Source: Bellilinea caldifistulae (GTDB lineage Bacteria > Chloroflexota > Anaerolineae > Anaerolineales > Anaerolineaceae). Taken from it: a DNA stretch of 32,000 bases. The stretch spans positions 60,001 through 92,000 of the forward strand of contig NZ_LGHJ01000014.1 of NCBI RefSeq assembly GCF_001306055.1, given 5' to 3'. Positions 878 through 32,000 of this stretch are shown here, one piece after another. The notes below the pieces were generated by a model. The model saw only the letters and a program-made list of their open reading frames with translations. It was not told where the DNA came from and searched no databases. Made by a program: the position numbers and the translations under genes. Positions within the stretch are counted from its first letter, which is position 1; each line of letters opens with the position of its first letter.

Positions 878-1297
878 TTACTCTCCAATGATTTTAACCA
901 GCACACGTTTACGCCGGCGTCCGTCGAACTCGCCGTAAAAAATTTGCTCCCATGGGCCAAAATCCAATTTACCGTTGGTGACCGCTACCACCACCTCTCG
1001 TCCCATGATTTGTCGTTTAAGGTGGGCGTCGGCGTTATCTTCGCCGGTGTTGTTGTGCCGGTACTGGCTGATCGGTTCGTGGGGGGCCAATTGTTCCAGC
1101 CAGCGCTCGTAATCATGGTGCAGGCCGGGTTCATCATCGTTGATGAACACCGAAGCGGTGATGTGCATGGCATTCACCAGACACAACCCTTCCCGAATGC
1201 CGCTTTCACGCAAGCAATCTTCCACCTGTGAGGTGATGTTGACGAAGCCGCGCCGGCTGGGGAGGTTAAACCAGAGTTCTTTGCGGTAGGACTTCAT
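878..1297 (-). CDS. YjbQ/UPF0047 family protein (secondary thiamine-phosphate synthase-like)
   Basis: 139-aa ORF of typical YjbQ size and motifs ([36 protein letters not shown] ... [39 protein letters not shown]). Confidence 0.85.
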
Positions 1298-1315
1298 GAC
1301 CTGTTCCTTTCCTTT

Positions 1316-3484: not shown

Positions 3485-3622
3485 AGGCGTTTCGACTCGT
3501 TTTATGCATTTTTAGGTTTACCCTTTTCGCCAAGTTTAACCAAGGGAGAAGTCCATGTATATCCTATTATACTGAATCCCCCATCCGCTGGTTCATCGAA
3601 GTTTAAACCGCTTTGGGGCAAA

Positions 3623-5584
3623 TCAATCAATGCCCGGCAATGTGTCCTGCTGCTGTTGATAAACGGCAACCCGGTTGCGGCCATTTTCTTTGGCTTGATA
3701 GAGGGCCTTATCGGCAGCGTCTACCAGTTGATCGAGACTGATCGGTTTGCCGGGTTCAAAGCAGGCTACTCCCAGACTGATGGTGATGAACGCTTTCCCT
3801 CTGGCGGTTGGGATGCTGATCGCTTCGACCGCATGGCGTAATCGCTCGGCAATGACGACGGCTTCCTTGATGCAGGTTTCCGGCAGTAAAATGATGAATT
3901 CTTCCCCGCCAAACCGCCCAATCGTATCAAACACACGGAGATTGCTGCGACAGCGTTGCGCCAGTGCCTGTAACATCTGATCGCCCACCAGATGACCAAA
4001 GGTGTCATTAATCCACTTGAAATGGTCAATATCCAGCAGGATGATGGCCATGTTCCGGTCGTAGCGGTGCGAGCGTTCCAGTTCGGTTTGAGCCACGTAA
4101 TAAAAGTGGCGCCGGTTGAAAACACCGGTGAGCGAGTCGGTAATTGCCAGTTCGTGCAATTTCTGTTCGGCCAGTTTCCGTTCGGTAATGTCGCGGAAGG
4201 AAAACAGCCAGCCAATCTGTTTGCCTTCCAGGCGATAAGTGGTCATCAAGCAATCCAGTGTCACACCCGAATGGAGATCCAGCGTGATCGAGGTTTCCTC
4301 CACAGAATGCCGGATAATTTCTTCGACTGTGGATAAGAAGGGACTGCCGTCAGACATTTTTTGAGCCAGCATATCCAGTGGATGATGATCAATCTGATTG
4401 TGCCAGTTGTTGGGCAAGTCGAAGAGTTTCACCAGCCGTTGATTGTAGAGAATGACGTTCAGGTCCTGATCGAACACGACCAGACCGGAGGCGGAAGAAT
4501 CTACGGTGGCTTGTAAAAGCGCCATCGAGCGGCGCAGGTCTAATTCCACCTGTTTTTGTTCGGTGATGTTATGAAGGGTGATGATATACCCGCTCAGTTC
4601 GCCGTTATCCTGAATGAGACGATTGACCTTGACCTGATAATGCTGGGTGGTGCCTTTGCCGGGCAGGGAAAGCTCGGTGATTTGAGTGGAGCGCCCGATG
4701 CCAAAATCGGCCCAATTTTCAGCCAGTGGCAGCAGGCTGGTTATTTCACGGCCAACCAATGTTTCAGCCGGGGTTGAAAACAAAGCGCATGCTGCCGGAT
4801 TGGCATCCAATACCCGTTTGCCGGTATCTGCCACAATCACTGCATCCGACAGGTTTTCAAACAGGGTGTCACGGGCGACGGGCACCAGATCAAGCAGGTG
4901 GTGGCGAAACAGCGCCCATGCAATGATGAGATTGCTGATTCCAAAAGACAAGGGGACAAGGTCGTGCAGGTTTAGGGGGATCCAGCCTGCAGCGGTGATG
5001 ATGCTCACCAGCCAGGGAATGATCGTGCCGACCAGTAAAGTGCCAACCTGCCTGCGGAACAGGCGCGGTGCACCGATGTACTTGACCACAAAAAACAGCG
5101 TGGCGAGGATGATCAGGGTGTAGGCATAGACAGTATAAATTCCGAACAGGGATCCGTTCTGGAATTCCAACGCATAAAACAAGTCCCTCTGGATGACCTG
5201 CGGATTGATTCGGAATAAACCGTGAAGGGCATCCGTCCAGATGAATGCCACCATGAGGCCGGCAAGGCCAAAGAGCAATTTCCAATTGAACCGTTTGAAG
5301 GGGATTTGACGATAGTTGTAATCCAGCGCAAAACCCAAATAAAAAACCGGCAACAAAGATGCTGCCAGAAATTGAATGTTATTCCAGAATAATCCGATTT
5401 CGATCCGATGGCTGAGGATTTGGAGGATGTAAGCAAACACCCACAGGGCTTCTGAGTATGCCAGACCCGCCAGCGCCCGGGATGCGACATCCTGCTTGCG
5501 GGTAGTGGCTAGCCGCCCGACCCAGATGCAAATCCCCGCTGAAATCAGATAGGGTAACAGGCCGATGATGTAGCGTAAGATCAT
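3623..5584 (-). CDS. Membrane sensor diguanylate cyclase (7TM N-terminal sensor module, two PAS-like regions, GGDEF)
   Basis: The N-terminal ~230 aa are polytopic and hydrophobic. Two PAS-like segments follow (LFENLSDAVIVAD..., LQATVDSSASGLVVFD...). The C-terminal GGDEF domain has an intact GGEEF and an RxxD I-site five residues upstream (RVFDTIGRFGGEEF). The first codon in the ORF track is TTG at 5587; I prefer the adjacent ATG at 5584. Confidence 0.9.
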   Translation of the reverse strand: MILRYIIGLLPYLISAGICIWVGRLATTRKQDVASRALAGLAYSEALWVFAYILQILSHRIEIGLFWNNIQFLAASLLPVFYLGFALDYNYRQIPFKRFNWKLLFGLAGLMVAFIWTDALHGLFRINPQVIQRDLFYALEFQNGSLFGIYTVYAYTLIILATLFFVVKYIGAPRLFRRQVGTLLVGTIIPWLVSIITAAGWIPLNLHDLVPLSFGISNLIIAWALFRHHLLDLVPVARDTLFENLSDAVIVADTGKRVLDANPAACALFSTPAETLVGREITSLLPLAENWADFGIGRSTQITELSLPGKGTTQHYQVKVNRLIQDNGELSGYIITLHNITEQKQVELDLRRSMALLQATVDSSASGLVVFDQDLNVILYNQRLVKLFDLPNNWHNQIDHHPLDMLAQKMSDGSPFLSTVEEIIRHSVEETSITLDLHSGVTLDCLMTTYRLEGKQIGWLFSFRDITERKLAEQKLHELAITDSLTGVFNRRHFYYVAQTELERSHRYDRNMAIILLDIDHFKWINDTFGHLVGDQMLQALAQRCRSNLRVFDTIGRFGGEEFIILLPETCIKEAVVIAERLRHAVEAISIPTARGKAFITISLGVACFEPGKPISLDQLVDAADKALYQAKENGRNRVAVYQQQQDTLPGID

Positions 5585-5637
5585 CAAAATTCAGTAAGGT
5601 AATATTCTGGTAGATTAAATCTAATCATACCTTATAA

Positions 5638-8548: not shown

Positions 8549-8668
<120 letters not shown>

Positions 8669-12505: not shown

Positions 12506-12627
12506 TGACGGTTGAAGGCCGGTTTCTGGCCTTCAGCCAATCAAACCGCATGGCATTGAAAAACGGCTAAATTGTTAGCAAAATATTCAAAGTCTGTAAG
12601 AGTTCCATTAGAGGTCTTACAAATCAC

Positions 12628-12657
12628 TTGACTTGTGGTATTCGGAAAGAATAAAAT
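12628..12657 (+). promoter_or_regulatory. Candidate promoter for the J-protein gene, positioned for a leaderless transcript
   Basis: TTGACT (12628-12633), an 18-nt spacer and TAAAAT (12652-12657). The ATG at 12664 begins 7 nt after the -10, and there is no Shine-Dalgarno sequence. Confidence 0.45.
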
Positions 12658-12663
12658 GAAAGC

Positions 12664-13617
12664 ATGGAATACAAGGACTATTACAAGATTCTGGGTGTTT
12701 CAAAGACAGCCAGTGAAGAAGAAATTAAAAAGGCCTATCGTAAACTGGCTATGAAATATCACCCCGACCGCAATCCGGGCGATAAGAGCGCGGAGGAAAA
12801 GTTCAAAGAGATTAACGAAGCTTATGAAGTGCTGGGCGATCCTCAAAAACGCGCTCGATACGACCAATTAGGAGAATCCTACCACCAATGGCAGCAAATG
12901 GGCGGTCAGCCGGGTTCCTTCAACTGGGAGCAGTGGTTTACCAGTGCGCCGGGCGGCGGCCGAACCGTCCAGGTGGACATGGAAGACCTGTTTGGCGGGA
13001 TGGGCAGCTTTTCGGATTTCTTCAGCGCCATATTTGGCGGAATGGGCGGGGAAACGGCGCGCCGCACAACCACTGGCCGTCGCACACGCCAGCCGCAGGC
13101 TTTTGAATACCCCGTACAAATTACCCTGGAAGAGGCTTACCGCGGCACCACCCGCCAGATTCAGGTGGATAACCGCCGGATCGAGGGCAAAATTCCGCCC
13201 GGCGCTCAAACTGGCACCAAAGTGCGCTTGCCGGGTGGCGGCCCCATCGGGGCAGATGGTCAGAAAAGTGACCTGTATCTGGTGATTGAGGTCTTGCCCG
13301 ACCCGCGATTTGAACGCAAAGGCAATGACCTTTACACCGAGGTGCCGGTGGATCTGTACACGGCGGTACTTGGCGGTCAGGTGCGGGTAAAGACCATGAG
13401 CGGCGAGGTGATGTTGACCATTCCACCCGGAACTCAGCCGGGGCAAAAAATTCGACTGGCGGGACGGGGAATGCCCGTTCTGCGCAATCCACAAACTTTT
13501 GGAGATTTGTACGTAACCGTCAAGGTACAACTTCCCCGGCAATTAACCGAGGAGCAGCGCCGCCTGTTTGAGCAGTTGCGCGCGTTGGAAAAACAAAAAT
13601 CAGCGGCTCGAGCCTGA
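12664..13617 (+). CDS. cbpA: CbpA-type J-domain co-chaperone (DnaJ-like, no zinc-finger domain)
   Basis: 317 aa. It has a canonical J domain ([36 protein letters not shown]), a G/F-rich linker and DnaJ C-terminal beta-domains (GDLYLVIEV..., [12 protein letters not shown]) with no CxxCxGxG repeats. Size and architecture match CbpA. The gene symbol is tentative. Confidence 0.8.
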
Positions 13618-13721: not shown

Positions 13722-14930
13722 ATGAACAAGAAAACCATCTTACTCACCTCGCTGATCATTCTTCTCACTACTGCGGCATGCGGGTTCACGTTTCAGATTC
13801 CGCGGTTTATGGGCGGTGAAACGCCCGCTCCAACTGCCGAGGTTCGAGTTGAAACTGTACCGGCCAGTCCGCAGGTGACCCTGCCTGCCGTTCCAACCCT
13901 GAGTTCTCCGCCGGATATTTCGGGATTGAGCTACACCGAACGGGATGCCCTGCTGACCGCCCTTTATGAACGGGTTTCACCGGGTGTGGTTTCCCTGCTG
14001 GTCGAAAATGAGCAGGGGGGCAGTACCGGGTCGGGTTTTGTGATTGACCGCCAGGGACATATTGTGACCAATTATCACGTCGTGGAAGATGCAACCGAAG
14101 TGGAAGTGGATTTCCTGTTTGGCTTGAAGGTGCGCGGCAAAGTGATCGGCACCGATCTTGATTCGGACCTGGCCGTTGTCAAAGTGGATGTGCCGGAGGA
14201 CGTACTCGTTCCGCTTCCGCTGGGCGATTCGGACCAGGTCAAAGTCGGGCAGACGGTCATTGCCATTGGCAATCCTTTCCAGTTAAACGGCACGATGACG
14301 CTTGGGATTGTTTCGGCAAAGGGCAGGACGCTGGAATCGCTCCGCCAGGCTGAGAGCGGCTCGTTTTTCACAGCCGGTGATATTATCCAGACCGATGCCG
14401 CCATAAACCCCGGCAATTCCGGGGGGCCGTTGCTGAACCTGAACGGCGAGGTGATCGGCGTCAACCGCGCGATTCGCACCACGGGCACAACCATCACCGG
14501 CGATCCGGTCAACAGCGGGATTGGCTTTTCGATTTCCAGCAACATTGTCCGGCGGGTTGTGCCGGAGTTGATTGCCAACGGCAAGTATGATTACCCCTAC
14601 CTTGGAATCACCAGCCGCAGTAACCTGACCCTGCGGATGATCGAAGAATTGGGTCTGCCGCGCCAGACGGGTGCCTACGTCACCGCAGTGACCCCCGGCA
14701 GCCCGGCCGACCGCGCTGGCTTACGGGGCGGAAGCCGGCCGACCAGTTTCACCGGCTTGCCGGCTGGCGGTGATTTGATCGTCGGGATTGACGGCAAGCC
14801 CGTTTTGACCTTTGACGATTTGCTGAGTTACCTGATTAAGAACAAAAAACCCGGCGACACGGTCACCTTGACCATTGTGCGTGACGGGCAGGAGAAGGAG
14901 GTGAACTTAACTCTCGGAAAACGTCCATAA
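13722..14930 (+). CDS. htrA: HtrA/DegP-family serine protease with one PDZ domain (lipoprotein-like signal)
   Basis: 402 aa. The N-terminal hydrophobic segment ends in LLTTAAC (lipobox-like). The S1C triad contexts are present (TNYHVV, DSDLAVVKV, GNSGGPLLN). A C-terminal PDZ follows (GAYVTAVTPGSPADRAGLRGG...GDLIVGIDGKPV). Confidence 0.9.
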   Translation: MNKKTILLTSLIILLTTAACGFTFQIPRFMGGETPAPTAEVRVETVPASPQVTLPAVPTLSSPPDISGLSYTERDALLTALYERVSPGVVSLLVENEQGGSTGSGFVIDRQGHIVTNYHVVEDATEVEVDFLFGLKVRGKVIGTDLDSDLAVVKVDVPEDVLVPLPLGDSDQVKVGQTVIAIGNPFQLNGTMTLGIVSAKGRTLESLRQAESGSFFTAGDIIQTDAAINPGNSGGPLLNLNGEVIGVNRAIRTTGTTITGDPVNSGIGFSISSNIVRRVVPELIANGKYDYPYLGITSRSNLTLRMIEELGLPRQTGAYVTAVTPGSPADRAGLRGGSRPTSFTGLPAGGDLIVGIDGKPVLTFDDLLSYLIKNKKPGDTVTLTIVRDGQEKEVNLTLGKRP

Positions 14931-14989: not shown

Positions 14990-16090
14990 ATGTTGGCTGA
15001 ACGTGAGCTGCGGGAATTGCTGCAATTCGTATCGCCGGACCCCGTTTTGAGTGTTTATCTCAACACCGATCCCTCGGCTGGCAATTCAGATGCGTACCGG
15101 CTGCGATTGCGCAATTTGTTAAAGGGGGTCAACTTGCCGGATGATGTTGCAGCCATTGAAAATTATTTTCAGTGGGAATACGATTGGAGCGGGCGAGGGG
15201 TGGTATTGTTCTCCTGTGCTCCACAAAAGTTCTTCCGGGTTTATCCATTAGCCATCCCGGTGCCGGATGTCGTTCACGTCAGTGACCGTCCCAGTGTGCG
15301 TGTGCTGGCCGACCTGCTGGACAGTTATGGCGGTTACGGGGTCGTTCTGGTGGACAAGCAAGGCGCCCGCCTGTTTTTCTTCCATCTGGGGGAATTGCGT
15401 GAGCAGGAGGGCGTGGTGGGGGAGGCCGTCAAGCGCGTTAAGCGCGGCGGTGCTTCTACTGTACCGGGAGCATTGGGTGGAATTGCCGGGCGCACCCGTC
15501 ACATGGAAGAAGTGGTCGAACGCAACATGAAAGAGTCGGTGGAATTTGCCGTGGAGTTCTTTGAAGCCAACCGTGTTCGGCGGATTTTGTTGGGCGGCTC
15601 GGATGAGAATGTTGCCCAATTCCGCAGTCTGCTGCCGAAAGCCTGGCAAAGTCTGGTTGTGGGACATTTTCCCATGAATATGAACGCCGGTCATGCCGAA
15701 GTGCTGGCAAAAGCCATGGAAATCGGACAGAAGGCAGAACAACGGCGTGAGGAACTGCTGATTGAGGACTTGATCACCCGCGCTGCAAAAAATAGCGGGG
15801 CGGTAACGGGGCTGGATGCAACCCTCGAAGCCGTCAGCGGCGACCGCGTCAGTACGCTGGTTGTGGCGCAGGGCTATCAGCAGCCAGCCTACCGCTGCAC
15901 CAATTGCGGTTACCTGACCGCCAAAATCATGACAACCTGCCCGGTTTGTGGTGGTGAAGTGCGCGAAATTCCGGACGCGGTGGACTTCGCCATCAGCCGC
16001 ACAATGCGCGCCGGTGGAGATGTGGAAGTCATTCATGCCAGTGACCAATTGATCAAGGCTGGCCAGATTGGGGCATTTCTGCGTTACTGA
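14990..16090 (+). CDS. Bacterial archaeo-eukaryotic release-factor-like protein (eRF1/Pelota/Vms1 superfamily) with zinc-ribbon insert
   Basis: 366 aa with an AGGAGG RBS. The central region aligns by eye to the eRF1 M domain (KRVKRGGASTVPGALGGIAGRTRHMEEVVERNMKESVEFAVEFF versus eRF1 [30 protein letters not shown]). The C-terminal region resembles eRF1/Pelota domain 3 (GAVTGLDATLEAVSGDRVSTLVV ... GQIGAFLRY). A CTNCG..x10..CPVCG zinc ribbon is inserted. Confidence 0.75.
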   Translation: MLAERELRELLQFVSPDPVLSVYLNTDPSAGNSDAYRLRLRNLLKGVNLPDDVAAIENYFQWEYDWSGRGVVLFSCAPQKFFRVYPLAIPVPDVVHVSDRPSVRVLADLLDSYGGYGVVLVDKQGARLFFFHLGELREQEGVVGEAVKRVKRGGASTVPGALGGIAGRTRHMEEVVERNMKESVEFAVEFFEANRVRRILLGGSDENVAQFRSLLPKAWQSLVVGHFPMNMNAGHAEVLAKAMEIGQKAEQRREELLIEDLITRAAKNSGAVTGLDATLEAVSGDRVSTLVVAQGYQQPAYRCTNCGYLTAKIMTTCPVCGGEVREIPDAVDFAISRTMRAGGDVEVIHASDQLIKAGQIGAFLRY

Positions 16091-16117: not shown

Positions 16118-16165
16118 AACATGCTCCCCCGCTGCAAGTCAGACGGGGGAGCATGTTCCATTTTA
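16118..16165. terminator. Bidirectional hairpin terminator between convergent operons
   Basis: Perfect 14-bp stem AACATGCTCCCCCG (16118-16131) / CGGGGGAGCATGTT (16144-16157) with a 12-nt loop. Flanks are T-rich on both strands (CCATTTTA on plus, ATTTAT on minus). Confidence 0.7.
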
Positions 16166-16177: not shown

Positions 16178-16849
16178 TCAGGGTTTTTCCAGCCGGGCAA
16201 GGTTTTCTGCCAGTATTCTCAATTCTTCCAGACTTTTTTCGGGATCGCTGGTAAGGTTTGAACGTACCGTGGCCAGCCGTTCGGTCAGGGCGGTTTCAAT
16301 GTCTTTATCGCCGATCATCGGGATCAGCTTTTTCAGGTTGCTGCTGGCTGAACTCAATTCCTGCCGGGCAGTAAGCAGGTCTTTGGTCACCAATGCCAAA
16401 CGCGCATAGGATACATTGTTTTGCAAGGCGGTCAACGCGGCAGAATACTGGAGGGCTTTCAATTCCTCGGAAGTCTGCTGCAACTCACCCTGAGACTTCT
16501 GCAACTGCTCGCGGGTCTCATTGAGGTCAGCTTCCAATGTGGCAATTTGCTCATTTTGGAGCAGAACCTGCCGGGTCTTTTCTGCCAATTTTTGTTCGGC
16601 GGGCAAATAAAGCAGGAAGTAAGCCAGACCAAAACCGACCAGCAGGGATGCCAGGATGACGACCAGCCAAGCCAGACTCCTTCGAAGCCATGCCGGCGCC
16701 GGTTTTTTTTCGGAAAGGAGTTCGGTTTCTTGTGTTGCTTCTGCCGGTTGAGGCTGAGCTTCTTCCGGTATGGGTCCACTGGTTGGGGTAGGTTCCTCGG
16801 CTTCGGTTGGCGGTGTCACCTCAGGGGCGGTTTCTTTCTCGTTTTCCAT
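16178..16849 (-). CDS. Bitopic membrane coiled-coil protein (acidic Pro/Glu-rich N-terminus, one TM, C-terminal coiled-coil/helical domain)
   Basis: 223 aa. The TM is LAWLVVILASLLVGFGLAYFLLYL, preceded by WLRR. Heptad-like Gln/Glu/Leu-rich sequence follows. The start is 22 nt downstream of the preceding gene, with a GGAGAAG RBS. No family was recognised; it shares motifs with the 16872..17822 product. Confidence 0.7.
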   Translation of the reverse strand: MENEKETAPEVTPPTEAEEPTPTSGPIPEEAQPQPAEATQETELLSEKKPAPAWLRRSLAWLVVILASLLVGFGLAYFLLYLPAEQKLAEKTRQVLLQNEQIATLEADLNETREQLQKSQGELQQTSEELKALQYSAALTALQNNVSYARLALVTKDLLTARQELSSASSNLKKLIPMIGDKDIETALTERLATVRSNLTSDPEKSLEELRILAENLARLEKP

Positions 16850-16871
16850 AATTGAGGCTTCTCCATTTCGT

Positions 16872-17822
16872 TTATGGGGTTGGGGAAGGGGTGGGGGTCA
16901 ATGTTAGGGTGCCGGCGGGGGTTGGGCTGGCGGTCAGTGTGCCGGTGGGGGTCAATTCCAGTGTACCGGCAGGGGTTGGGCTGGCGGTCAGAGCGCCAGT
17001 GGAAGTCATCTGCGGAGTTTCTTCAACCGCCAGGGGCGCAAGTGGTGTTTCTTCCAGCAGGGGTGGCAGCAGAATCAGGTTTTCAGCCGCCTGCAAATCA
17101 CTGGCTGCCATCACTGGCCGGTCGGGCAAGTTGACCAACGCAGAGTCAAGCCTGCCAATCCAGGCAGCCAGTTCTGCTTTTTGCTCCTCGCTGGCCGTTT
17201 GCTGCAATTCAACCAGCAAAAGCCGGGCTGCGCGGATTTCATCACGCGCCAGCCCCAAATTGGCCTGACTGAGGTATACCCGTGCCCGCTGAATCAACAG
17301 GGCGGATTTTAAGACGGTCAGCTGGTATTCCACCTCGTTGAGAAAATCTCCATTTGCAAGGGTCTGTTGATTTTCCTGCGCCAGTTGAAGCGCTTCGGTG
17401 CTGATTTTCCGTACCTCAGCCAGTTTCTTCTCCAGATCGTCCAATCGTTTGAGCTGCAGGGGGTAAGCCTGCTGGGTGGATTGAATCAGTTCAACATCGC
17501 TTTTCAAACCGGCTGATTCATCCTGAAGCAGGATGATCTGGTTACCCATGTCGGTAACCTGCTGCTGGAGTCTCTCCAACCGCTGGCTGAACTGCTCGTT
17601 TTGGCTGGCCTGTTGGGTCTCCAGCAAACTCAGGCGGGCGCTATTCTCCCGTGCCGGCAGGATGGCTTGCTGATAAATCAGGACGAAACCCATGTACAGC
17701 AGCCCGGCCAGGATGACACCTGCCAAAACCACTATGATCAAGCGCAGGACAGCGCGGAAAAACGCCCCTACTGCAATCGAAAATCGCTCACCAGCGGAAA
17801 GCGGGGGTTGTGAGTTACTCAT
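16872..17822 (-). CDS. Bitopic membrane coiled-coil protein with a Thr/Pro-rich repeat tail
   Basis: The start is moved to ATG 17822 (MSNSQPP...), which has AGGAG 6 nt upstream and removes the overlap with the upstream gene. One TM (FFRAVLRLIIVVLAGVILAGLLYMGFVLIY) is followed by a long coiled coil and a C-terminal tail, GALTASPTPAGTLELTPT GTLTASPTPAGTLTLTPT PSPTP. Confidence 0.7.
   Translation of the reverse strand: MSNSQPPLSAGERFSIAVGAFFRAVLRLIIVVLAGVILAGLLYMGFVLIYQQAILPARENSARLSLLETQQASQNEQFSQRLERLQQQVTDMGNQIILLQDESAGLKSDVELIQSTQQAYPLQLKRLDDLEKKLAEVRKISTEALQLAQENQQTLANGDFLNEVEYQLTVLKSALLIQRARVYLSQANLGLARDEIRAARLLLVELQQTASEEQKAELAAWIGRLDSALVNLPDRPVMAASDLQAAENLILLPPLLEETPLAPLAVEETPQMTSTGALTASPTPAGTLELTPTGTLTASPTPAGTLTLTPTPSPTP
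16890..16997 (-). repeat. Two tandem, in-frame 54-bp repeats encoding an 18-aa Thr/Pro-rich unit
   Basis: 16890-16943 and 16944-16997 are near-identical, with a handful of mismatches. They translate to GTLTASPTPAGTLTLTPT and GALTASPTPAGTLELTPT at the C-terminus of the 16872..17822 product. Confidence 0.85.
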
Positions 17823-17835
17823 GGCAATCTCCTGT

Positions 17836-18750
17836 CTAGGGGGTTTCACCCACGCTCAACAAACGGCGTAAGCCGTCCAAAAAGTTTTGAAAAACATTGC
17901 TGCGTTTTTGCAAATCCTCGATCTGGGTTTGGAAAGCGGCGGTTTGTTGCTGCAAGTCAGCCAGTTCACTCTGGGCTGATTTCAATTCATCGCTGAGTGA
18001 CTTTTGGCCTTGCTCCAGCGTGGTCACCCGTCCGCCGAGGGCTTCAATCGTCTGTACCCGGCTGCGTAAATTATCCACATCTCCCTCTAATAAACGGATG
18101 CGGTTATTCAGTGCATCCAGTCTTCCTGAGAGCGCCTGTGCCTCTGCGGCGGGCGCATAGGTGAGGGTTTGATTGATCAGTGCCAGGGTACCCAGGGTGA
18201 AGACCAACGAGAGGATCAGGGTCACGATGGCCACACCGACGGCTGTCCAGAGCAAATCTTCACGTCGTACCCATTTCTCGTCGGTTTTGAGAGGCTGGCC
18301 GACGGGCGGCGGGGTAGAAGCAGTCCGGGATTCAAGCGCCGCAGCCGGTTCAGCAGCAGGCGGGGTGGCCTGTGTGGCTTCTTGTATTTCACCCTCGGCC
18401 TCAGATTGGGCGGGTTCGCTTTCCACTTCGGGCGGTTCTGCTGCAGGGCTTTCCGACAGGGTTGACTCAACCTCCTCTCGCGCCGGAGCGGAAGCCACAG
18501 CCGCCACAGGCTCCGGGAGGGTTGATTCGGGCTCTTCCACTGCGGTGTCGGTAAAATCAATTTTCAGGTAGGGCCGGATCTTTTCCAGCGAAGCTGGCCC
18601 AATTCCGCTCACCCGTGTCAATTCATCCAGCGTGGAAAAGGGTCGGGCCGCCACAATCCGCTCGGCGAGGGCCGGGCCAATCCCCGGTACCGAGGCCAGT
18701 TCTTCCAGTGTGGCACGATTGACCTCAACTGCGCCATTTTGCGTTTCCAT
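17836..18750 (-). CDS. Membrane protein with N-terminal ComEA-type helix-hairpin-helix DNA-binding domain, acidic linker, one TM and C-terminal coiled coil
   Basis: 304 aa with a GGAGGA RBS. Residues ~8-63 (VEVNRATLEELASVPGIGPALAERIVAARPFSTLDELTRVSGIGPASLEKIRPYL) match the ComEA HhH (HHH_3) motif. An acidic Pro/Ala/Glu linker follows. KWVRRED precedes the TM LLWTAVGVAIVTLILSLVFTLGTLALI. A heptad-rich tail ends the protein. Confidence 0.75.
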   Translation of the reverse strand: METQNGAVEVNRATLEELASVPGIGPALAERIVAARPFSTLDELTRVSGIGPASLEKIRPYLKIDFTDTAVEEPESTLPEPVAAVASAPAREEVESTLSESPAAEPPEVESEPAQSEAEGEIQEATQATPPAAEPAAALESRTASTPPPVGQPLKTDEKWVRREDLLWTAVGVAIVTLILSLVFTLGTLALINQTLTYAPAAEAQALSGRLDALNNRIRLLEGDVDNLRSRVQTIEALGGRVTTLEQGQKSLSDELKSAQSELADLQQQTAAFQTQIEDLQKRSNVFQNFLDGLRRLLSVGETP

Positions 18751-18792: not shown

Positions 18793-19641
18793 TTACTCGC
18801 TTTTGGTTTTACGCGCCGGTAGCGCCGGACGGGCGGGGTAGGGCAAGGGGATGTATTCAACCGAGGGGCGGCGCTGCTGAGTTTGCGGGTACAAATTCAT
18901 CAACTGGTAGATTTCTTCGGGTAGTTCGGTTTTGACATTCAGGCCCAACTGACGGGCTTCGTCCACCGTAATCGGGTAATCGTGCGTCCATTTGCCGGTA
19001 GCCAGTTCTTCGGCCAGAAATTCAGCCTTCTCCGCAGGGTAGTGGGCCGACGCAATTCTGCGAATGGTGGCTTTGACCTGTTCAATGGCTTTTCGGGAGA
19101 TGTCCGCCAGAATCAGGGTTTCATCGTCAATTCGATTACGGTCTTTTTCGGCAACCACTTGCAGAATCGAAGCCGCGGGAAAATTGCCGATTTGCGGGTC
19201 CACCGGGCCGAGCACCGCATTTTCATCCATGAGAATTTCATCGGCAGCCAGCGCAATCATCGTGCCGCCGGACATGGCGTAATGCGGCACCATGACGGTC
19301 ACCTTGCCTTCGTGACGGGCAAGCGCATTGGCAATTTGCTCGGCCGCCAGCACCAGACCGCCGGGGGTATGGAGGATGATGTCAATGGGCAGTTTGGGAT
19401 CGGTCAATTTGATGGCGCGCAAAACCTGTTCCGAGTCCTGAATATCAATATAACGGGCAACCGGGAAACCCAGAAAACTCATACTCTCCTGCCGGTGAAT
19501 GAGGGCGATGACGCGCGAACCGCGTTTGGTTTCGATGGTTCTCATCAAACGCAGCCGGTCTGCTTCGATGATTTTTTGTCGGAACAGCGGCACAAGACTG
19601 GAAATGATAAGAAAGAGCCAGAGAAGATTGAGTAGATCCAT
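18793..19641 (-). CDS. Membrane-anchored SDH-family ClpP-fold serine proteinase
   Basis: 282 aa with a GGAGG RBS. It has an N-terminal TM (LLNLLWLFLIISSLVPLF). The body matches the SDH/ClpP-fold pattern (RVIALIHRQE..., IDIILHTPGGLVLAAEQIANAL, VMVPHYAMSGGTMIALAADEILMDENAVLGPVDPQ). Confidence 0.8.
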   Translation of the reverse strand: MDLLNLLWLFLIISSLVPLFRQKIIEADRLRLMRTIETKRGSRVIALIHRQESMSFLGFPVARYIDIQDSEQVLRAIKLTDPKLPIDIILHTPGGLVLAAEQIANALARHEGKVTVMVPHYAMSGGTMIALAADEILMDENAVLGPVDPQIGNFPAASILQVVAEKDRNRIDDETLILADISRKAIEQVKATIRRIASAHYPAEKAEFLAEELATGKWTHDYPITVDEARQLGLNVKTELPEEIYQLMNLYPQTQQRRPSVEYIPLPYPARPALPARKTKSE

Positions 19642-19674: not shown

Positions 19675-20373
19675 TTACCATGGGTAATATTCGTCGCGGT
19701 ACCAGTAGACTCTATTGCGGTTGGAAGCGCTGAAGGGAAAACCCAGCAGCAGCCCAAATAAAAACCCGCCAATGTGAGCCCACCAGGCAATTCCGCCCAT
19801 GCTCATGCCGGCCGGCAGGGCAAGAGAAACCAGACCAGAGAATAACTGGGAAACGAACCAGAATCCGAGGTAGATGACGGCAGGAATGTTGACGAACCAC
19901 GGCAGGAAAAATACCGGTACAAAAGTGATGACCTGAGCGCGCGGGAAGAACAGGAAGTAAGCGCCCAGCACCGCCGCAATTGCCCCGGATGCGCCGATTG
20001 AGGGTATATTCGGTGCGCCCAGCAGCAGCTGCAGCATTCCGGCTGCAACGCCGCCGATGATATAAAACACGAGGAAACGGAACGAACCCATCCGGTCTTC
20101 GACATTGTCCCCGAAAATGAACAAAGTCCACATATTGCTGAGAAAATGCACCCACCCACCATGCAGAAACATGTGAGTGAGGAGCGGATACCACGTCAGG
20201 GGGTTGTCAATTTGAATGCGGGTGCCCAATAAACCGAACGTACGGATGAAACGCTCCAATTGAAAGGGACTCAGATCCAGCTCGATGAAAAAAACAAACG
20301 TGTTTGCCAGAATGATGAGCCAGGTCATGATCGGAAGCGACCTGGAGCGGATGGTGTCTTTGAGTGGAAACAT
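19675..20373 (-). CDS. Rhomboid-family intramembrane serine protease
   Basis: 232 aa with a GGAGGAG RBS. It is polytopic and has rhomboid signatures: HMFLHGGWVHFLSNMWTLFIFG, catalytic GASGAIAAVLGAY and AHIGGFLFGLLLG. Confidence 0.9.
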   Translation of the reverse strand: MFPLKDTIRSRSLPIMTWLIILANTFVFFIELDLSPFQLERFIRTFGLLGTRIQIDNPLTWYPLLTHMFLHGGWVHFLSNMWTLFIFGDNVEDRMGSFRFLVFYIIGGVAAGMLQLLLGAPNIPSIGASGAIAAVLGAYFLFFPRAQVITFVPVFFLPWFVNIPAVIYLGFWFVSQLFSGLVSLALPAGMSMGGIAWWAHIGGFLFGLLLGFPFSASNRNRVYWYRDEYYPW

Positions 20374-20536: not shown

Positions 20537-22045
20537 ATGAACGGAAAAGTGCTTGTTTTCAGCGTTCATGAACCATTCCGAACCCTGTTGCTGAACAGCT
20601 TGAAGGGCGGCGGTTTCAGCCGGGTGGCTGCCGCCGGCAAAGTTGAGGAAGTCCGTCAGATTCTGCCGGAGGGGGATTTTGAGGCGCTGGTGGTGGACCT
20701 GGATGCCGGTGAGGACATTCAACAGGCCTGGTTGCATCTGGTGCAGGAAGTGCAGCCCTCTCGTTTGATCATCTTCCCGCCGGATAACGACCGGCTTCAT
20801 CCGTTGGTGGGGCTCCTTCGTCCGGCAACTGTGCTGATCAAGCCGTTTTACCTGCCGGATTTGCTTTCTGCTTTACAGGTAAACGAGGGTCATTCCCCGA
20901 CCGTTCGGCCGGCTCCCCCGCTCTCATCACCTGCTACCGAACCGAAAGAGACCCTCGCCAAGTGGTTGAGTGAAGCCCATGCGCTTGGCGCGGTCATTCT
21001 GCGGCGGGGTCAGCCGCCGCTGCTGGTTGGCAACCTTGAAGAGGAAGATTTACGCGAAGCCGGTCTGGTTTTGGGGCGGTTCTGGCAGAGCGAAAGGCGA
21101 ACGGATTTAATTCGCTATTTTCGCCCGCATGTTGCCGATCAAGATGTTTTGCTTTACGCCACCTTGCTTTCGGAAGGCACACCATTGGGGTTGTTGTTCG
21201 AGGCGCATACTTCCCTGCGGGAAGCGCGCCGTGTAAGTCAGTGGTTTGCCAGCCGTTGGAATGACCGGCTGCTCGCCGAACCCGTCAACGACCTGCCAGG
21301 AACCGCAGAATTGGTTTCTCCGTTCACAGTTGAAGAGGAGAATTCTCAGTCAGCAGAACAATCATTCTTATCGGAGGAAGATGGGAATCTCGCAGAATTT
21401 GATCAGATTCGATTGGAGGATCTACTTGGCAGTGTTCCCTCGCCTGACCCGGTAAGGTACGAAAAGTCCTCTGACTGGCAGCCTGAAAGTGACTTCCTGC
21501 CCGGAAGTGACGTTATGGCACCTGTGAGAGAACCTGTTCAGCCCTCAAATCCCCAACCCGATCCAACGCTACCACCATTTGCTGAAAGCCCGGCCGCACT
21601 GGAAGAAACTCGCCCAAGCCGGAAAACCACGTTACCTCCAAGGGGGGACTTGCTGAATCACGAAGCGCGCCAAACTTACACCTGTGTTTTGCTGCCTCGT
21701 TCCCCTGAGGTAACTTTAGAAGGGGAAATCGGGGAGGAACTGCGCCGTTGGCTGCCGGATTTTTGTGCTACACTGGGGTACACACTGGAATCGCTGATCG
21801 TCGAGACGGCTTATCTACTGTGGACGGTCAACCTGCCCCCGGCAGTATCACCCGGACATGTGGTGCGGATTGTACGGGATCAAAGTTCCAGCCATCTTGC
21901 CGGGTGTATCCCCGAACTGGCGGGTAAGGGAAATTTCTGGGCTTCAGCCCACCTGATCCTGCGCAGCCGGCATGCACCGGAAGCCTCATTGATCGAGGAC
22001 TTTATCAGCCGTACCCGCCGCCGGCAGGGATTTCTTTCCTCATAA
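20537..22045 (+). CDS. Multidomain protein: pseudo-receiver (REC-like), Roadblock/LC7-like region, acidic/Pro-rich linker and a degenerate IS200/IS605-type Y1 transposase fold
   Basis: 502 aa.
- Residues ~4-115 are CheY-like (LVVDLD, VLIKPFYLPDLLSAL), but the N-terminal acidic pair is replaced (VFSVHEP).
- Residues ~140-240 resemble Roadblock/LC7 (ALGAVILRRGQPPLLVG ... VLLYATLLSEGTPLGLLFEA); this is weaker.
- Residues ~380-497 align along their length with IS200 TnpA (YxxV..P, LPPxxS, SS, FW). HUH is replaced by YLL, and the catalytic Tyr by Phe (IEDFISRT). Confidence 0.7.
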   Translation: MNGKVLVFSVHEPFRTLLLNSLKGGGFSRVAAAGKVEEVRQILPEGDFEALVVDLDAGEDIQQAWLHLVQEVQPSRLIIFPPDNDRLHPLVGLLRPATVLIKPFYLPDLLSALQVNEGHSPTVRPAPPLSSPATEPKETLAKWLSEAHALGAVILRRGQPPLLVGNLEEEDLREAGLVLGRFWQSERRTDLIRYFRPHVADQDVLLYATLLSEGTPLGLLFEAHTSLREARRVSQWFASRWNDRLLAEPVNDLPGTAELVSPFTVEEENSQSAEQSFLSEEDGNLAEFDQIRLEDLLGSVPSPDPVRYEKSSDWQPESDFLPGSDVMAPVREPVQPSNPQPDPTLPPFAESPAALEETRPSRKTTLPPRGDLLNHEARQTYTCVLLPRSPEVTLEGEIGEELRRWLPDFCATLGYTLESLIVETAYLLWTVNLPPAVSPGHVVRIVRDQSSSHLAGCIPELAGKGNFWASAHLILRSRHAPEASLIEDFISRTRRRQGFLSS

Positions 22046-31107: not shown

Positions 31108-32000
31108 CTCGAAAATTACGCGTGGTTTCGATTTTCGGCACCCGCCCGGAGGCGGTTAAAATGGCGCCAGTGGTTCAGGCTTTGGCCAGGACGCCGGAAA
31201 TTGATTCGCGGGTGATTGTCACTGCCCAACACCGCCAGATGCTGGATCAGGTGCTGGATTTGTTTGGCATTCGGCCGGATTACGACCTGAATCTGATGCA
31301 GCCCAATCAAACCCTGGCGCAGTTGACAGCAGCCATCTTCACCCATCTTGACCCCGTGCTCCGCCATCTCCAGCCGGACTGGATGCTGGTTCAGGGTGAT
31401 ACCACCACTGTTATGGCAGCCGCCCTGTTGGGGTATTACCAACGGATTAAGGTGGGACATGTCGAAGCCGGTTTGCGTTCCGGTGACCGCTGGCAACCTT
31501 TTCCGGAGGAGGTCAACCGGCGGGTTGCCAGCGTGGTTGCGGATTTGCACCTTGCTCCAACCCGGCACAGTCGTCAAAATCTGCTGCGCGAAGGGGTCGA
31601 GGAATGGCGGATTGTTGTTACCGGTAACCCGGTCATTGATGCGTTGAATGAGATTGTGCGCCGGCCGATGCCGGCGGAAGCAGGCCAGATTCTTGACCGC
31701 TATCAGATTGGCCGGCAGGGCAGGCAACTGGTGCTGGTTACCGCTCATCGGCGCGAGAATTTTGGAGAACCGCTGGAAGCAATCTGCTGCGCCTTGAAGC
31801 AGCTGTCTGAGCGGTATAAGGATAAAATCCAGATCATTTATCCGGTGCACCTGAATCCGAATGTTCAAGAGCCGGTTTACCGCCTGCTCGATGGAGTGGC
31901 GAACATTGCCCTGTTGCCGCCGCTGGAGTATCTGACGATGGTGCATTTGCTGCAAGCCGCCCGTCTGGTGTTGACCGATTCGGGTGGTATTCAAGAAGAG
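31104..32000 (+). CDS. wecB: UDP-N-acetylglucosamine 2-epimerase, non-hydrolysing (5' part; continues past the window end)
   Basis: This gene is not in the ORF track because there is no stop within the window. My own translation from ATG 31104 gives [79 protein letters not shown]...[34 protein letters not shown]...PFPEEVNRR. This is canonical WecB/MnaA. The frame stays open for 299 codons to base 32000. Confidence 0.9.
   Translation, partial: [299 protein letters not shown]

What the first reader, a model, noticed from the sequence alone, without database searches (positions are those of the whole stretch)
14990..16090. Bacterial eRF1/Pelota/Vms1-like protein with a Gln-less GGQ-equivalent loop and a zinc-ribbon insert
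Seen in sequence:
- The central region is recognisably the eRF1 M domain. RVKRGGASTVPGALGGIAGRTRHMEEVVERNMKESVEFAVEFF aligns with eRF1 [28 protein letters not shown].
- The C-terminal region is domain-3-like, ending in GQIGAFLRY (compare eRF1 GGIGGILRY).
- A CxxC-x10-CxxC zinc ribbon is inserted (C303/C306/C317/C320, nt 15896-15949).
- The catalytic-loop equivalent (nt ~15440-15493) reads K-R-G-G-A-S and has no Gln anywhere in the loop. Classical GGQ-type peptidyl-tRNA hydrolysis is therefore doubtful.

Established knowledge:
- Bacterial aeRF1-like (baeRF / Vms1-like) families have been catalogued computationally. As far as I know they are essentially uncharacterised experimentally.
- Pelota lacks GGQ and acts in ribosome rescue without hydrolysis.
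- Vms1/ANKZF1 uses a divergent loop and has been reported to cleave the tRNA.

Inference: this is a candidate stalled-ribosome rescue or nascent-chain release factor.
Basis: partly seen in the sequence, partly recalled or inferred. Interest (0 to 1): 0.66.

Follow-up and report, generated by a model that had tools for sequence, protein, structure and literature searches.

The report
Balon-type ribosome hibernation factor homologue
This gene encodes a bacterial relative of the archaeal/eukaryotic release factor eRF1 that falls in the same protein family as a known ribosome "hibernation" factor (mycobacterial Balon), so it is an uncharacterised but fairly ordinary new member of a recently described kind rather than a new release or rescue enzyme.

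Summary
ORF 14990-16090 (+, 366 aa) is a three-domain aeRF1-superfamily protein. It has G153-G154-A155 where eRF1 has GGQ, no Gln in the loop, and a Cys4 zinc ribbon (C303/C306/C317/C320).

The statement that such proteins are uncharacterised is out of date. The protein is a strong member of Pfam baeRF_family10 (148 bits). Mycobacterium smegmatis Msmeg1130, shown by cryo-EM to be an A-site ribosome hibernation factor (Balon homologue, Nature 2024), belongs to the same Pfam family. The AlphaFold model (pLDDT 93) superposes on ribosome-bound Msmeg1130 with TM 0.83. The values for aRF1/eRF1 are about 0.5 and for Pelota at most 0.41. There is no hit to Vms1/VLRF1 profiles.

The gene is conserved across Anaerolineales; relatives were found in 289 species genomes. 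It is usually the last gene of a dnaJ(cbpA-type)-htrA-baeRF10 operon (58 of 80 loci) behind a conserved regulated promoter.

Best reading (confidence about 0.66): a non-hydrolytic, stress-induced A-site hibernation factor. The zinc ribbon is the ancestral aRF1 feature, kept in 98 of 106 family representatives. The special feature of this clade is a conserved Gly-rich loop expansion without Gln.

Verdict: new member of a known kind, modest interest.

The parts
14990..16090 (+). baeRF family-10 (Balon-type) gene, 366 aa
   Evidence: ORF. Pfam PF18854, 147.9 bits. Orthologues of 59-98% identity with conserved length of 366-367 aa.
14990..15289 (+). N-terminal domain (residues 1-100). It lacks NIKS and YxCxxxF. 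It has a conserved loop Y23-LNTDPSAGNSD-34 and a basic helix YRLRLRNLLK.
   Evidence: AF2 secondary structure. An N-domain profile hits only Balon-type chains in the PDB. The loop is positionally equivalent to the HP-motif loop of P. urativorans Balon. Y23, T26, D34, R41 and K45 are invariant in A1.
15290..15727 (+). Middle (eRF1 M-like, RNase H-fold) domain, residues 101-246
   Evidence: The Pfam baeRF_family10 match covers residues 101-246 and the full profile.
15422..15502 (+). GGQ-equivalent loop (residues 145-171): K151-R-G153-G154-A155-S156-T-V-P-G160-A-L-G-G-I-A-G-R-T-R-H. It is Gly-rich, contains no Gln and is about 8-9 residues longer than the family norm.
   Evidence: Alignments. Low pLDDT of 55-79 indicates a flexible loop. 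K151, G153 and G160 are invariant in 79 orthologues.
15728..16087 (+). C-terminal (eRF1 domain-3 / Pelota-type) domain, ending in GQIGAFLRY
   Evidence: Profile alignment to aRF1, eRF1 and Msmeg1130 through the C-terminus. G358, G361 and R365 are invariant.
15887..15970 (+). Cys4 zinc ribbon (residues 300-327; C303, C306, C317, C320) within the C-domain. It lies at the site of the aRF1 Zn ribbon and of the EF-Tu-contacting insertion of Msmeg1130/Balon.
   Evidence: Weak Zn-ribbon Pfam hits at residues 301-321. Cys conservation. The profile alignment places it opposite the aRF1 C..CxxC segment and opposite Msmeg1130 residues about 310-335. pLDDT is about 95.
12664..13617 (+). CbpA-type DnaJ (J domain plus DnaJ_C, no Zn-finger region), first gene of the putative operon
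   Evidence: Pfam. Found upstream on the same strand in 65 of 80 orthologous loci, and also in a 42%-identical short-loop relative (L085).
13722..14930 (+). HtrA/DegP-type serine protease with a PDZ domain and an N-terminal hydrophobic segment, second gene
   Evidence: Pfam Trypsin_2 plus PDZ. Found between dnaJ and the baeRF gene in 58 of 80 loci; the median gap to the baeRF gene is about 55 nt.
12596..12657 (+). Conserved regulated promoter of the operon. It consists of the tandem direct repeat GTAAGA-N5-ATTAGA (12596-12612), the -35 element CTTGACT (12627-12633) and the -10 element ATAAAAT (12651-12657). Only 6 nt separate the -10 element from the dnaJ ATG, which implies a leaderless or near-leaderless mRNA.
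   Evidence: Promoter scan, 10 of 12 matches. Conserved in orthologous loci: repeat in 42 of 53, fixed 36-nt distance from TTGAC to ATG in 43 of 53. The repeat pattern is unique in the window, with 0.01 expected by chance.
16118..16157 (.). Perfect 14-nt inverted repeat (AACATGCTCCCCCG / CGGGGGAGCATGTT, 12-nt loop) between the convergent baeRF gene and the downstream minus-strand gene. It is a probable bidirectional terminator marking the end of the operon.
   Evidence: No plus-strand terminator-like site lies in an intergenic gap between dnaJ and the end of the baeRF gene; the only two plus-strand hits are inside htrA and the number of sites found matches the shuffle expectation.

Best explanation
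The gene encodes a Balon-type ribosome hibernation factor. It is a bacterial aeRF1 homologue of Pfam baeRF family 10, the same family as the mycobacterial hibernation factor Msmeg1130.

Proposed mechanism, inferred by homology and not shown here:
1. Under proteotoxic or envelope stress the dnaJ-htrA-baeRF10 operon is switched on from a promoter with an activator-type tandem repeat.
2. The protein enters the ribosomal A site independently of mRNA.
3. Its N-domain loop (YLNTDPxxGNxD) and basic helix contact the decoding centre.
4. [quoted passage not shown] It has no Gln to position water, so it occupies the centre without hydrolysing peptidyl-tRNA.
5. The Cys4 zinc ribbon in the C-domain lies where Balon and Msmeg1130 carry the insertion that contacts EF-Tu.

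The result would be reversible parking and protection of ribosomes during stress, co-regulated with a cytosolic J-domain co-chaperone and an extracytoplasmic quality-control protease.
For: Shown here:
- Pfam baeRF_family10, 147.9 bits against a cutoff of 27.1. Msmeg1130 itself scores 124.6 bits on the same model.
- A family profile (71 sequences) finds Msmeg1130 as the best PDB sequence (E=2e-35, full length). It ranks ahead of aRF1 (2e-24), Rv2629 (1.5e-19), eRF1 (about 5e-18), P. urativorans Balon (2e-10) and Pelota (7e-10).
- An N-domain-only profile hits only the three Balon-type chains.
- The AF2 model (pLDDT 93.4, pTM 0.84, no templates) superposes on ribosome-bound Msmeg1130 at TM 0.83/0.81 and rmsd 3.9 A over all three domains. 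Other values are Rv2629 0.72, P. urativorans Balon 0.65, aRF1/eRF1 0.45-0.56 and Pelota at most 0.41.
- NIKS and GGQ are absent, and no Gln is conserved in the loop among 79 orthologues.
- An insertion is present at the site of the EF-Tu-binding insertion.
- The genomic context is stress and proteostasis. The dnaJ-htrA-baeRF10 arrangement occurs in 58 of 80 loci and dnaJ-baeRF10 in 7 more. Relatives lie next to DnaJ, a MerR-type regulator, ECF sigma factors, Lon and Hsp20.
- There are no defence-system hits.

From the literature:
- Balon, Msmeg1130 and Rv2629 bind the A site, lack NIKS and GGQ, and carry a C-domain insertion. Balon genes often lie in stress operons that include DnaJ, DnaK and Hsp20 (PMC10901736).
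- A native Balon-ribosome complex has also been seen in Synechocystis (bioRxiv 10.64898/2026.07.03.736309).
Against: - There are no experimental data for any Chloroflexota member.
- Sequence identity to Msmeg1130 is low: 20% in the structural alignment, and 29% over 148 N-terminal residues by BLASTP.
- The protein is far below the curated NCBIfam equivalog cutoffs of all three hibernation-factor models: 75 against 480, 51 against 330 and 45 against 320 bits.
- Unlike the characterised Balons, it keeps both glycines of GGQ and an intact zinc ribbon, both of which are ancestral aRF1 features.
- The loop is strongly conserved within the clade. Burroughs and Aravind associate catalytically dead families with poorly conserved loops, and they singled out family 10 as possibly active (PMC6514570).
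- The neighbours are DnaJ and HtrA, not RaiA/HPF, which the Balon paper reports as the most frequent Balon neighbour.
- No His-Pro dipeptide is present in the decoding-centre loop.
Confidence: 0.66

Rival explanations
1. Non-catalytic ribosome rescue factor, working like Pelota/Dom34. It would recognise stress-stalled ribosomes in the A site, possibly delivered by EF-Tu through the retained zinc-ribbon C-domain. It would promote dissociation or recycling, and the co-encoded DnaJ would take over the nascent chains.
For: - Membership of the aeRF1 superfamily and loss of Gln, as in Pelota.
- Tight and phylogenetically wide linkage to a J-domain protein, 65 of 80 loci plus L085.
- The neighbours are protein quality-control genes (HtrA, Lon, Hsp20), not HPF/RaiA.
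- The ancestral Zn ribbon is retained at the translational-GTPase-facing domain.
- Burroughs and Aravind proposed such a role for baeRF proteins (PMC6514570).
Against: - Pelota is the poorest structural match, TM at most 0.41.
- The best match is a protein shown to act as a hibernation factor.
- Bacteria lack an obvious ABCE1-type splitting partner (established knowledge).
- The Balon study reports that the factor keeps peptidyl-tRNA intact and the ribosome inert (PMC10901736).
Confidence: 0.15
2. Catalytically active, Gln-independent peptidyl-tRNA hydrolase, or a Vms1-like tRNA-cleaving enzyme. It would release nascent chains from stalled ribosomes using the retained Gly-Gly backbone of the K-R-G-G-A-S loop.
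For: - Both glycines of the GGQ equivalent are retained. G153 is invariant, G154 is present in 72 of 79 orthologues, and residue 155 is always small: A, G or S.
- The loop is under strong constraint within the clade.
- In class-1 release factors the two glycines are indispensable. The Gln side chain has a 'packing role' and the water is also held by the main-chain NH (PMC5799190).
- From my own memory of Shaw and Green 2007 (the paper could not be retrieved here), Gln-to-Ala release factors keep substantial hydrolytic activity.
- Family 10 was flagged as potentially active (PMC6514570).
Against: - The three Gln positions that are common in short-loop family-10 members (before GG, GGxSQ, and Y-Q-R) are all lost or unconserved in this clade.
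- The loop is about 8-9 residues longer than in families with a fixed catalytic loop length.
- There is no VLRF1 or acVLRF1 profile hit.
- The closest characterised relative, Msmeg1130, is non-hydrolytic and lacks GG altogether.
- There is no NIKS or other codon-reading motif.
Confidence: 0.1
3. The protein no longer acts on the ribosome. It would be an aeRF1-fold protein recruited to another role in the DnaJ/HtrA proteostasis pathway, for example as a zinc- or redox-sensing adaptor.
For: A conserved Cys4 site could sense zinc or oxidation. The operon partners are not translation factors. All evidence for ribosome binding is by homology only.
Against: - The whole-chain architecture matches the ribosome-bound conformation of Msmeg1130.
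- Conserved basic residues lie in the N-domain helix and in the helix after the loop, as expected for rRNA contact: R41, K45, R178, N179 and K181.
- No member of the superfamily is known to work off the ribosome (established knowledge).
Confidence: 0.05

Closest known systems
Msmeg1130 (MSMEG_1130), the Balon homologue of Mycobacterium smegmatis (PDB 8v9j/8v9l)
   Same: - Same Pfam family, baeRF_family10.
- Same three-domain architecture and relative domain arrangement, TM 0.83.
- No NIKS and no GGQ.
- A conserved [YF]-[LF]-N-x-D-P loop after beta-1, and the signature L-D-x-x-x-x-x-G-V-V at the junction of the N and M domains.
- An insertion at the same C-domain site.
   Different: - Only about 20-29% identity, and 75 bits against the 480-bit equivalog cutoff.
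- Msmeg1130 has lost all four Cys of the zinc ribbon and both glycines of the loop. The window protein keeps the Cys4 ribbon and G-G, and has a Gly-rich loop expansion.
- The genomic context differs: a hypoxia-related context in mycobacteria according to PMC10901736, and dnaJ-htrA here.
Balon of Psychrobacter urativorans (AOC03_06830; PDB 8rd8)
   Same: An aeRF1-derived A-site factor without NIKS or GGQ. It has a decoding-centre loop after beta-1 and a C-domain insertion. It is encoded in stress-response operons, which can include DnaJ (PMC10901736).
   Different: - A more distant relative: TM 0.65, profile E=2e-10.
- The window protein has no His-Pro dipeptide in the equivalent loop.
- It has a Zn ribbon where Balon has a beta-hairpin.
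- Whether equivalents of the 'lasso' loop and the bL27 trap exist could not be tested.
Rv2629 of M. tuberculosis (PDB 8v9k)
   Same: An A-site-binding baeRF protein with three domains; TM 0.72.
   Different: It belongs to Pfam baeRF_family2, not family 10, and has no Zn ribbon.
Archaeal aRF1 / eukaryotic eRF1 (class-1 release factors)
   Same: Homologous over the full length to aRF1 (E=2e-24). It retains the Gly-Gly of GGQ, the helix that follows, the C-terminal G-x-I-G-x-x-L-R-Y motif and the Zn ribbon of the C-domain.
   Different: - No NIKS or YxCxxxF codon-reading motifs, and a shorter N-domain (about 100 aa).
- Ala replaces the catalytic Gln.
- The loop is about 10 residues longer.
- TIGR03676 score of 49 against a cutoff of 234.7.
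- Global TM of only about 0.5.
Pelota/Dom34 and Vms1/ANKZF1 (VLRF1)
   Same: The same superfamily fold. Pelota also lacks the catalytic Gln.
   Different: - Pelota: TM at most 0.41, and only the M/C region aligns.
- Vms1: no VLRF1 or acVLRF1 Pfam hit for the window protein. The GGxSQ/GSQ-type Gln is absent in the window protein and present in only 15 of 79 orthologues.

Membership tests
aeRF1 superfamily (eRF1/aRF1/Pelota/baeRF fold) | Three-domain architecture with an RNase H-fold middle domain and an eRF1-domain-3/Pelota-type C-domain | tested here: met
   The profile aligns over the full length to aRF1 and eRF1. Foldseek probability is 1.0 to aRF1, eRF1, Pelota and Balon chains.
Pfam baeRF_family10 (PF18854) | Score above the curated gathering threshold over the whole model | tested here: met
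   147.9 bits against a cutoff of 27.1, profile positions 1-142 of 143.
Pfam baeRF_family10, as described by Burroughs and Aravind 2019 | A well-conserved Gln in the catalytic loop | tested here: not met
   Gln is common in short-loop members at three positions (44, 32 and 57 of 89). It is absent from the window protein and not conserved in its clade, where 28 of 79 orthologues have no loop Gln. This clade is a Gln-less subgroup of the family.
Balon-type hibernation factors (Helena-Bueno et al. 2024) | (i) No NIKS motif in the N-domain | tested here: met
   No NIKS in the sequence. The region aligned to the aRF1 NIKS reads LLKGVNLPDD.
Balon-type hibernation factors (Helena-Bueno et al. 2024) | (i') An extended decoding-centre loop on the N-domain (the HP motif in P. 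urativorans Balon) | tested here: inconclusive
   A positionally equivalent and strongly conserved loop is present (Y23-LNTDPSAGNSD-34), but it has no His-Pro. Msmeg1130 has YFNADPTQN there. Contact with A1492 and A1913 was not testable.
Balon-type hibernation factors (Helena-Bueno et al. 2024) | (ii) No GGQ motif in the middle domain | tested here: met
   The loop reads G-G-A, and Gln is not conserved anywhere in it. Unlike the solved Balons, the two glycines are retained.
Balon-type hibernation factors (Helena-Bueno et al. 2024) | (iii) A characteristic insertion in the EF-Tu-binding C-terminal domain | tested here: met
   An insertion is present at the same site as Msmeg1130 residues about 310-335, but here it is an intact Cys4 zinc ribbon.
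Balon-type hibernation factors (Helena-Bueno et al. 2024) | Binding to the ribosomal A site, recruitment of EF-Tu(GDP), the bL27 trap, and inhibition of translation | not testable with these tools
   This needs pelleting assays, cryo-EM and in vitro translation.
NCBIfam equivalogs MSMEG_1130_fam, AOC03_06830_fam and Rv2629_fam (ribosome hibernation factors) | Score above the curated equivalog cutoff | tested here: not met
   75.3 against 480, 51.1 against 330 and 44.7 against 320 bits. The protein is not an equivalog of any curated subfamily. It is a separate subfamily within family 10.
Class-1 release factor aRF1/eRF1 | NIKS and YxCxxxF stop-codon recognition, GGQ, and the TIGR03676 cutoff | tested here: not met
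   The motifs are absent. The score is 49 bits against a cutoff of 234.7.
Pelota/Dom34 | A Pelota-type (Sm-fold) N-domain with loop A, and close global similarity | tested here: not met
   Only residues about 161-294 align to Pelota sequences. TM is at most 0.41.
Vms1/VLRF1 (including acVLRF1 of Actinobacteria and Chloroflexi) | A match to the VLRF1 or acVLRF1 profile, and a loop containing GSQ/GGxSQ | tested here: not met
   No such Pfam hit at E<=10. Residue 157 is Thr. It is Gln in 15 of 79 orthologues.

The most novel reading that the evidence does not exclude
The Zn-ribbon-bearing, Gly-Gly-retaining family-10 proteins may not be passive hibernation factors. This Anaerolineae clade, with its conserved Gly/Arg-rich loop, would be one of them. 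They would instead be an evolutionary intermediate between aRF1 and Balon that still acts on the nascent chain. In that reading the factor is delivered by EF-Tu and releases or hands over nascent polypeptides from stress-stalled ribosomes to the co-transcribed CbpA-type J-protein. This would be a bacterial, Gln-independent counterpart of eukaryotic ribosome-associated quality control.
Probability: 0.1. Interest if true: 0.75.

Novelty: new member of a known kind. Interest (0 to 1): 0.3.

Why it matters
If the main reading is right, the family-10 (Msmeg1130-type) branch of Balon extends into Chloroflexota (Anaerolineales), abundant filamentous anaerobes of sludge, sediments and hot springs. The Balon paper reports homologues in 23 of 27 phyla without naming Chloroflexota in its main text.

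The protein would also be a natural intermediate form. It has already lost codon reading and the catalytic Gln, but it still carries the ancestral aRF1 zinc ribbon and the Gly-Gly turn. Comparing it with Msmeg1130 could show two things. One is how the EF-Tu interface changed from a Zn ribbon to a beta-hairpin. The other is how the loop facing the peptidyl-transferase centre was repurposed.

The very conserved dnaJ-htrA-baeRF10 operon has a response-regulator-like box and a leaderless promoter. It offers a testable link between ribosome hibernation and protein quality control.

None of this overturns current understanding.

Tried and rejected
- The search for related loci with the diverse alignment A2 failed because no stretch was conserved enough. 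The closer alignment A1 was used instead, so the genome survey is biased towards Anaerolineae.
- phmmer of the single protein against PDB sequences gave only a marginal Balon hit, E=8e-4. A family profile was needed.
- Classical heat-shock operators were searched for in the whole window and not found: CIRCE and HAIR, up to 3 mismatches. The 7-nt palindrome TGTAAGA/TCTTACA seen upstream of dnaJ is better explained as part of a conserved direct repeat.
- PADLOC gave no hit for the baeRF protein or for DnaJ. HtrA gave only generic protease-domain hits. A defence-system role was dropped.
- The Vms1 and Pelota readings were rejected on profile and structure grounds.
- Three context look-ups for distant short-loop relatives returned contigs shorter than 3 kb with little context.
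- The Shaw and Green 2007 paper (PMC2175178) on Gln-independent hydrolysis is not held. That point rests on PMC5799190 and on memory.
- Residue numbers for the HP motif and the bL27 trap are not given in the text or in the held supplements of PMC10901736. The HP motif was located by alignment instead. The bL27 trap could not be located.
- The antisense ORF 15248..16048 (-) inside the gene was treated as a by-product of base composition and not pursued.
Full report
1. Checking the observation

The window contains an ATG-initiated ORF at 14990..16090 on the + strand that encodes 366 aa, exactly as reported.
- The middle region matches an eRF1-type M domain. Pfam baeRF_family10 gives E=3e-43 over residues 101-246.
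- The C-terminal third is an eRF1-domain-3-type domain ending in GQIGAFLRY. It aligns with GGIGGILRY of eRF1.
- Four cysteines lie at positions 303, 306, 317 and 320 (nt 15896-15949).
- The loop K151-R-G-G-A-S156 contains no glutamine.

In profile alignments G153-G154-A155 falls on G-G-Q of aRF1/eRF1, so Ala occupies the catalytic-Gln position.

None of this is chance or a sequencing oddity.
- 2439 proteins match at E<=1e-5 in the word-indexed search.
- 2873 cluster representatives match at E<=1e-3 in the exhaustive search.
- 289 species-level genomes encode a relative. The best 80 are all Anaerolineae: Bellilinea, Thermanaerothrix, Longilinea, Ornatilinea and Anaerolinea.

In 79 species-level orthologues, K151, G153 and G160 are invariant and S156 is present in 77 of 79. 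The four Cys are present in 73-77 of 79. No loop position has a conserved Gln, and 28 of 79 orthologues have no Gln in the loop at all.

2. What it is

That has been overtaken. Helena-Bueno et al. (Nature 2024, PMC10901736) described Balon, a bacterial aeRF1 homologue. It occupies the ribosomal A site together with EF-Tu(GDP) in hibernating ribosomes of Psychrobacter urativorans. By cryo-EM they showed that the mycobacterial homologues Msmeg1130 and Rv2629 bind the A site in the same way. A 2026 preprint reports a native Balon-ribosome complex in Synechocystis.

The NCBIfam scan of the window protein lists the three curated "ribosome hibernation factor" models as its best full-length hits. All score far below their equivalog cutoffs: 75 against 480, 51 against 330 and 45 against 320 bits.

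I rebuilt the Msmeg1130 and Rv2629 sequences from printed alignments and scanned them against Pfam. Msmeg1130 is itself a baeRF_family10 protein (124.6 bits). Rv2629 is family 2. The window protein therefore shares its Pfam family with a structurally validated hibernation factor.

A profile of 71 diverse family members gave these PDB sequence matches:
- Msmeg1130: E=2e-35, full length
- archaeal aRF1: E=2e-24
- Rv2629: E=1.5e-19
- eRF1: E about 5e-18
- P. urativorans Balon: E=2e-10
- Pelota: E=7e-10

A profile restricted to the N-domain hits only the three Balon-type chains.

An AlphaFold2 model built without templates from that alignment is confident: pLDDT 93.4, pTM 0.84. Only residues about 145-170 are flexible. 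Foldseek against the PDB gave these TM scores:
- ribosome-bound Msmeg1130: 0.83/0.81, rmsd 3.9 A over all three domains
- Rv2629: 0.72
- P. urativorans Balon: 0.65
- aRF1/eRF1: 0.45-0.56
- Pelota/Dom34: at most 0.41

No VLRF1 or acVLRF1 (Vms1-type) profile matched even at E<=10. No defence-system model matched.

3. Anatomy compared with the defining features of Balon

The supplement of PMC10901736 lists three shared characteristics.

(i) No NIKS motif, plus an extended loop on the N-domain that binds the decoding centre.
- NIKS and YxCxxxF are absent. The aligned segment reads LLKGVNLPDD.
- By alignment, the His-Pro of P. urativorans Balon (…VKTHREHPANDQDP…) lies in the loop after beta-1.
- The equivalent loop here is Y23-L-N-T-D-P-S-A-G-N-S-D34. 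It is strongly conserved in the clade (Y23, T26 and D34 invariant) but has no His-Pro. Msmeg1130 has YFNADPTQN there.
- A conserved basic helix follows (YRLRLRNLLK).

(ii) No GGQ motif. This is met, with a twist, because the two glycines are retained.

(iii) An insertion in the C-domain that faces EF-Tu.
- The insertion is present at the same site as Msmeg1130 residues about 310-335.
- Here it is an intact Cys4 zinc ribbon, aligned with the C…CxxC segment of aRF1.
- Burroughs and Aravind (PMC6514570) had already noted that many baeRF families carry a two-strand insert at the site of the ancestral Zn ribbon.
- In family 10 the ribbon is the rule: all four Cys are present in 98 of 106 representatives. 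Msmeg1130 is the exception.
- The zinc ribbon is therefore an ancestral retention, not an insertion.

4. The loop

Burroughs and Aravind singled out family 10 as a baeRF family that keeps a well-conserved Gln and might be catalytically active.

The wider family fits this description. 89 of 106 representatives have a short, eRF1-length loop with the consensus [RK]-H-K-Q-G-G-W-[SA]-[QA]-A-R-[YF]-Q-R-H. In those 89:
- Trp sits at the position of the eRF1 Gln in 47.
- Gln precedes G-G in 44.
- Gln occupies the GGxSQ position in 32.
- Gln occupies the Y-Q-R position in 57.

The window protein belongs to a minority of 17 of 106, essentially the Anaerolineae clade. This minority has an insertion of about 8-9 residues (P-G-x-R-G-G-x-A-G), a small residue (A, G or S) at the Gln position, and none of those Gln conserved.

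The loop is nevertheless well conserved within the clade. That argues for a specific contact at the peptidyl-transferase centre rather than decay.

The chemistry does not strictly forbid hydrolysis. In class-1 release factors the two glycines are indispensable. The Gln side chain has a packing role, and the water is also held by the main-chain NH (PMC5799190). I therefore keep a catalytic rival at about 0.1.

5. Genomic context

The gene is the last of three co-oriented genes: a CbpA-type DnaJ (12664-13617; J domain plus DnaJ_C), an HtrA/DegP protease with a PDZ domain (13722-14930), and the baeRF10 gene. The gaps are 104 and 59 nt. No + strand terminator-like site lies in either gap. A perfect 14-nt inverted repeat follows the stop codon at 16118-16157.

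In 80 orthologous loci:
- 58 have dnaJ-htrA-baeRF10.
- 7 have dnaJ directly adjacent.
- 5 have htrA but no detectable dnaJ. In 4 of these the contig ends where dnaJ would lie.
- 10 have neither. In 2 of these less than 2.3 kb of upstream sequence is available.

The outer flanks differ between loci. The window has FtsK upstream, whereas other loci have a pair of REC-GAF signalling genes.

The link to DnaJ reaches beyond the clade. A short-loop relative of 42% identity also has a CbpA-type dnaJ directly upstream and an ECF sigma/anti-sigma pair downstream. Other relatives lie next to Lon, a MerR-type regulator, an ECF sigma factor, or Hsp20 plus bacterioferritin.

This agrees with the Balon paper, which states that Balon genes typically lie in stress-response operons that include Hsp20, DnaK, DnaJ and alternative sigma factors. 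RaiA/HPF, the most frequent Balon neighbour in that study, was not seen here.

6. Promoter (side finding that supports stress regulation)

Upstream of dnaJ the orthologous loci share a fixed architecture. It consists of a tandem direct repeat RTWAGA-N5-RTWAGA (42 of 53 loci), a CTTGACT -35 element, a 17-18 nt spacer and an ATAMAAT -10 element. Only 6 nt then separate the -10 element from the ATG. The distance from TTGAC to ATG is exactly 36 nt in 43 of 53 loci.

This spacing implies a leaderless or near-leaderless dnaJ mRNA. The repeat occurs once in the 32-kb window, at 12596-12612, where 0.01 matches are expected by chance. Its 11-bp period and its position just upstream of the -35 element look like the box of an OmpR/PhoB-type response regulator. 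From memory it resembles the CiaR and CpxR boxes that drive htrA/degP. That is a lead, not a test.

CIRCE and HAIR operators are absent.

7. Mechanism and verdict

The best-supported explanation (confidence about 0.66) is a Balon-type, non-hydrolytic A-site hibernation factor that is induced with a proteostasis operon.
- Shown here: family membership, fold, domain arrangement, loss of the motifs, conservation and synteny.

The rivals are a Pelota-like rescue factor that cooperates with DnaJ (0.15), a Gln-independent hydrolase (0.10), and a non-ribosomal role (0.05).

In terms of novelty this is a new, uncharacterised subfamily-level member of a known kind. Its variant features are the intact ancestral Zn ribbon, the retained Gly-Gly and the clade-specific Gly-rich loop. 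These make it a useful comparison point between aRF1 and the solved Balons but are not a surprise to a specialist. Interest 0.3.

Noticed in passing
window 12596-12663 (+): The promoter architecture upstream of dnaJ is conserved across Anaerolineae. It has a tandem direct repeat RTWAGA-N5-RTWAGA (unique in the window, 0.01 expected by chance), a CTTGACT -35 element and an ATAAAAT -10 element that ends 6 nt before the ATG. This implies a leaderless or near-leaderless mRNA and control by an unidentified activator of the response-regulator type.
   Followed up: partly
window 8550-8666 (+): A SAM (S-box) riboswitch, Rfam RF00162, 85 bits, lies upstream of the S-adenosylmethionine synthetase gene. 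The mechanically called GTG start at 8629 lies inside the riboswitch. The real metK start is therefore probably further downstream; the Pfam N-domain begins at residue 50 of the called ORF.
   Followed up: partly
window 16178-18750 (-): Downstream of the baeRF gene, on the opposite strand, lies a syntenic block. It has two coiled-coil proteins with an N-terminal hydrophobic segment (223 and 325 aa; one has only a sub-threshold T2SSM hit and the other no Pfam family) and a ComEA-like HhH protein with a coiled-coil tail (304 aa). An SDH-type ClpP-like serine protease (18793-19641) and a rhomboid (19675-20373) follow. The block is conserved in many Anaerolineae loci. Its function is unknown.
   Followed up: partly
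L001-L004, L039, L042, L061, L062, L070, L081, L082, L084 (about 1200-4900, minus strand): In many orthologous loci a divergent pair of REC-GAF(-PAS-HisKA-HATPase) signalling proteins lies upstream of the dnaJ-htrA-baeRF10 cluster, or directly upstream of the baeRF10 gene where dnaJ and htrA are missing. The window has FtsK there instead. This pair is a candidate regulator of the cluster. No DNA-binding domain was seen.
   Followed up: no
window 15248-16048 (-): A long antisense ORF (266 aa, TTG start) lies entirely inside the baeRF gene. It was treated as a by-product of base composition and not examined.
   Followed up: no
window 1316-5587 (-): Polyphosphate kinase Ppk1 (1316-3484) lies next to a 7TM-PAS-GGDEF diguanylate cyclase (3623-5587). 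Both are stress or stationary-phase signalling genes in the same neighbourhood.
   Followed up: no
window 20537-22045 (+) and 31116-31994 (-): Two sizeable ORFs (502 aa and 292 aa) have no Pfam family at E<=1e-4.
   Followed up: no
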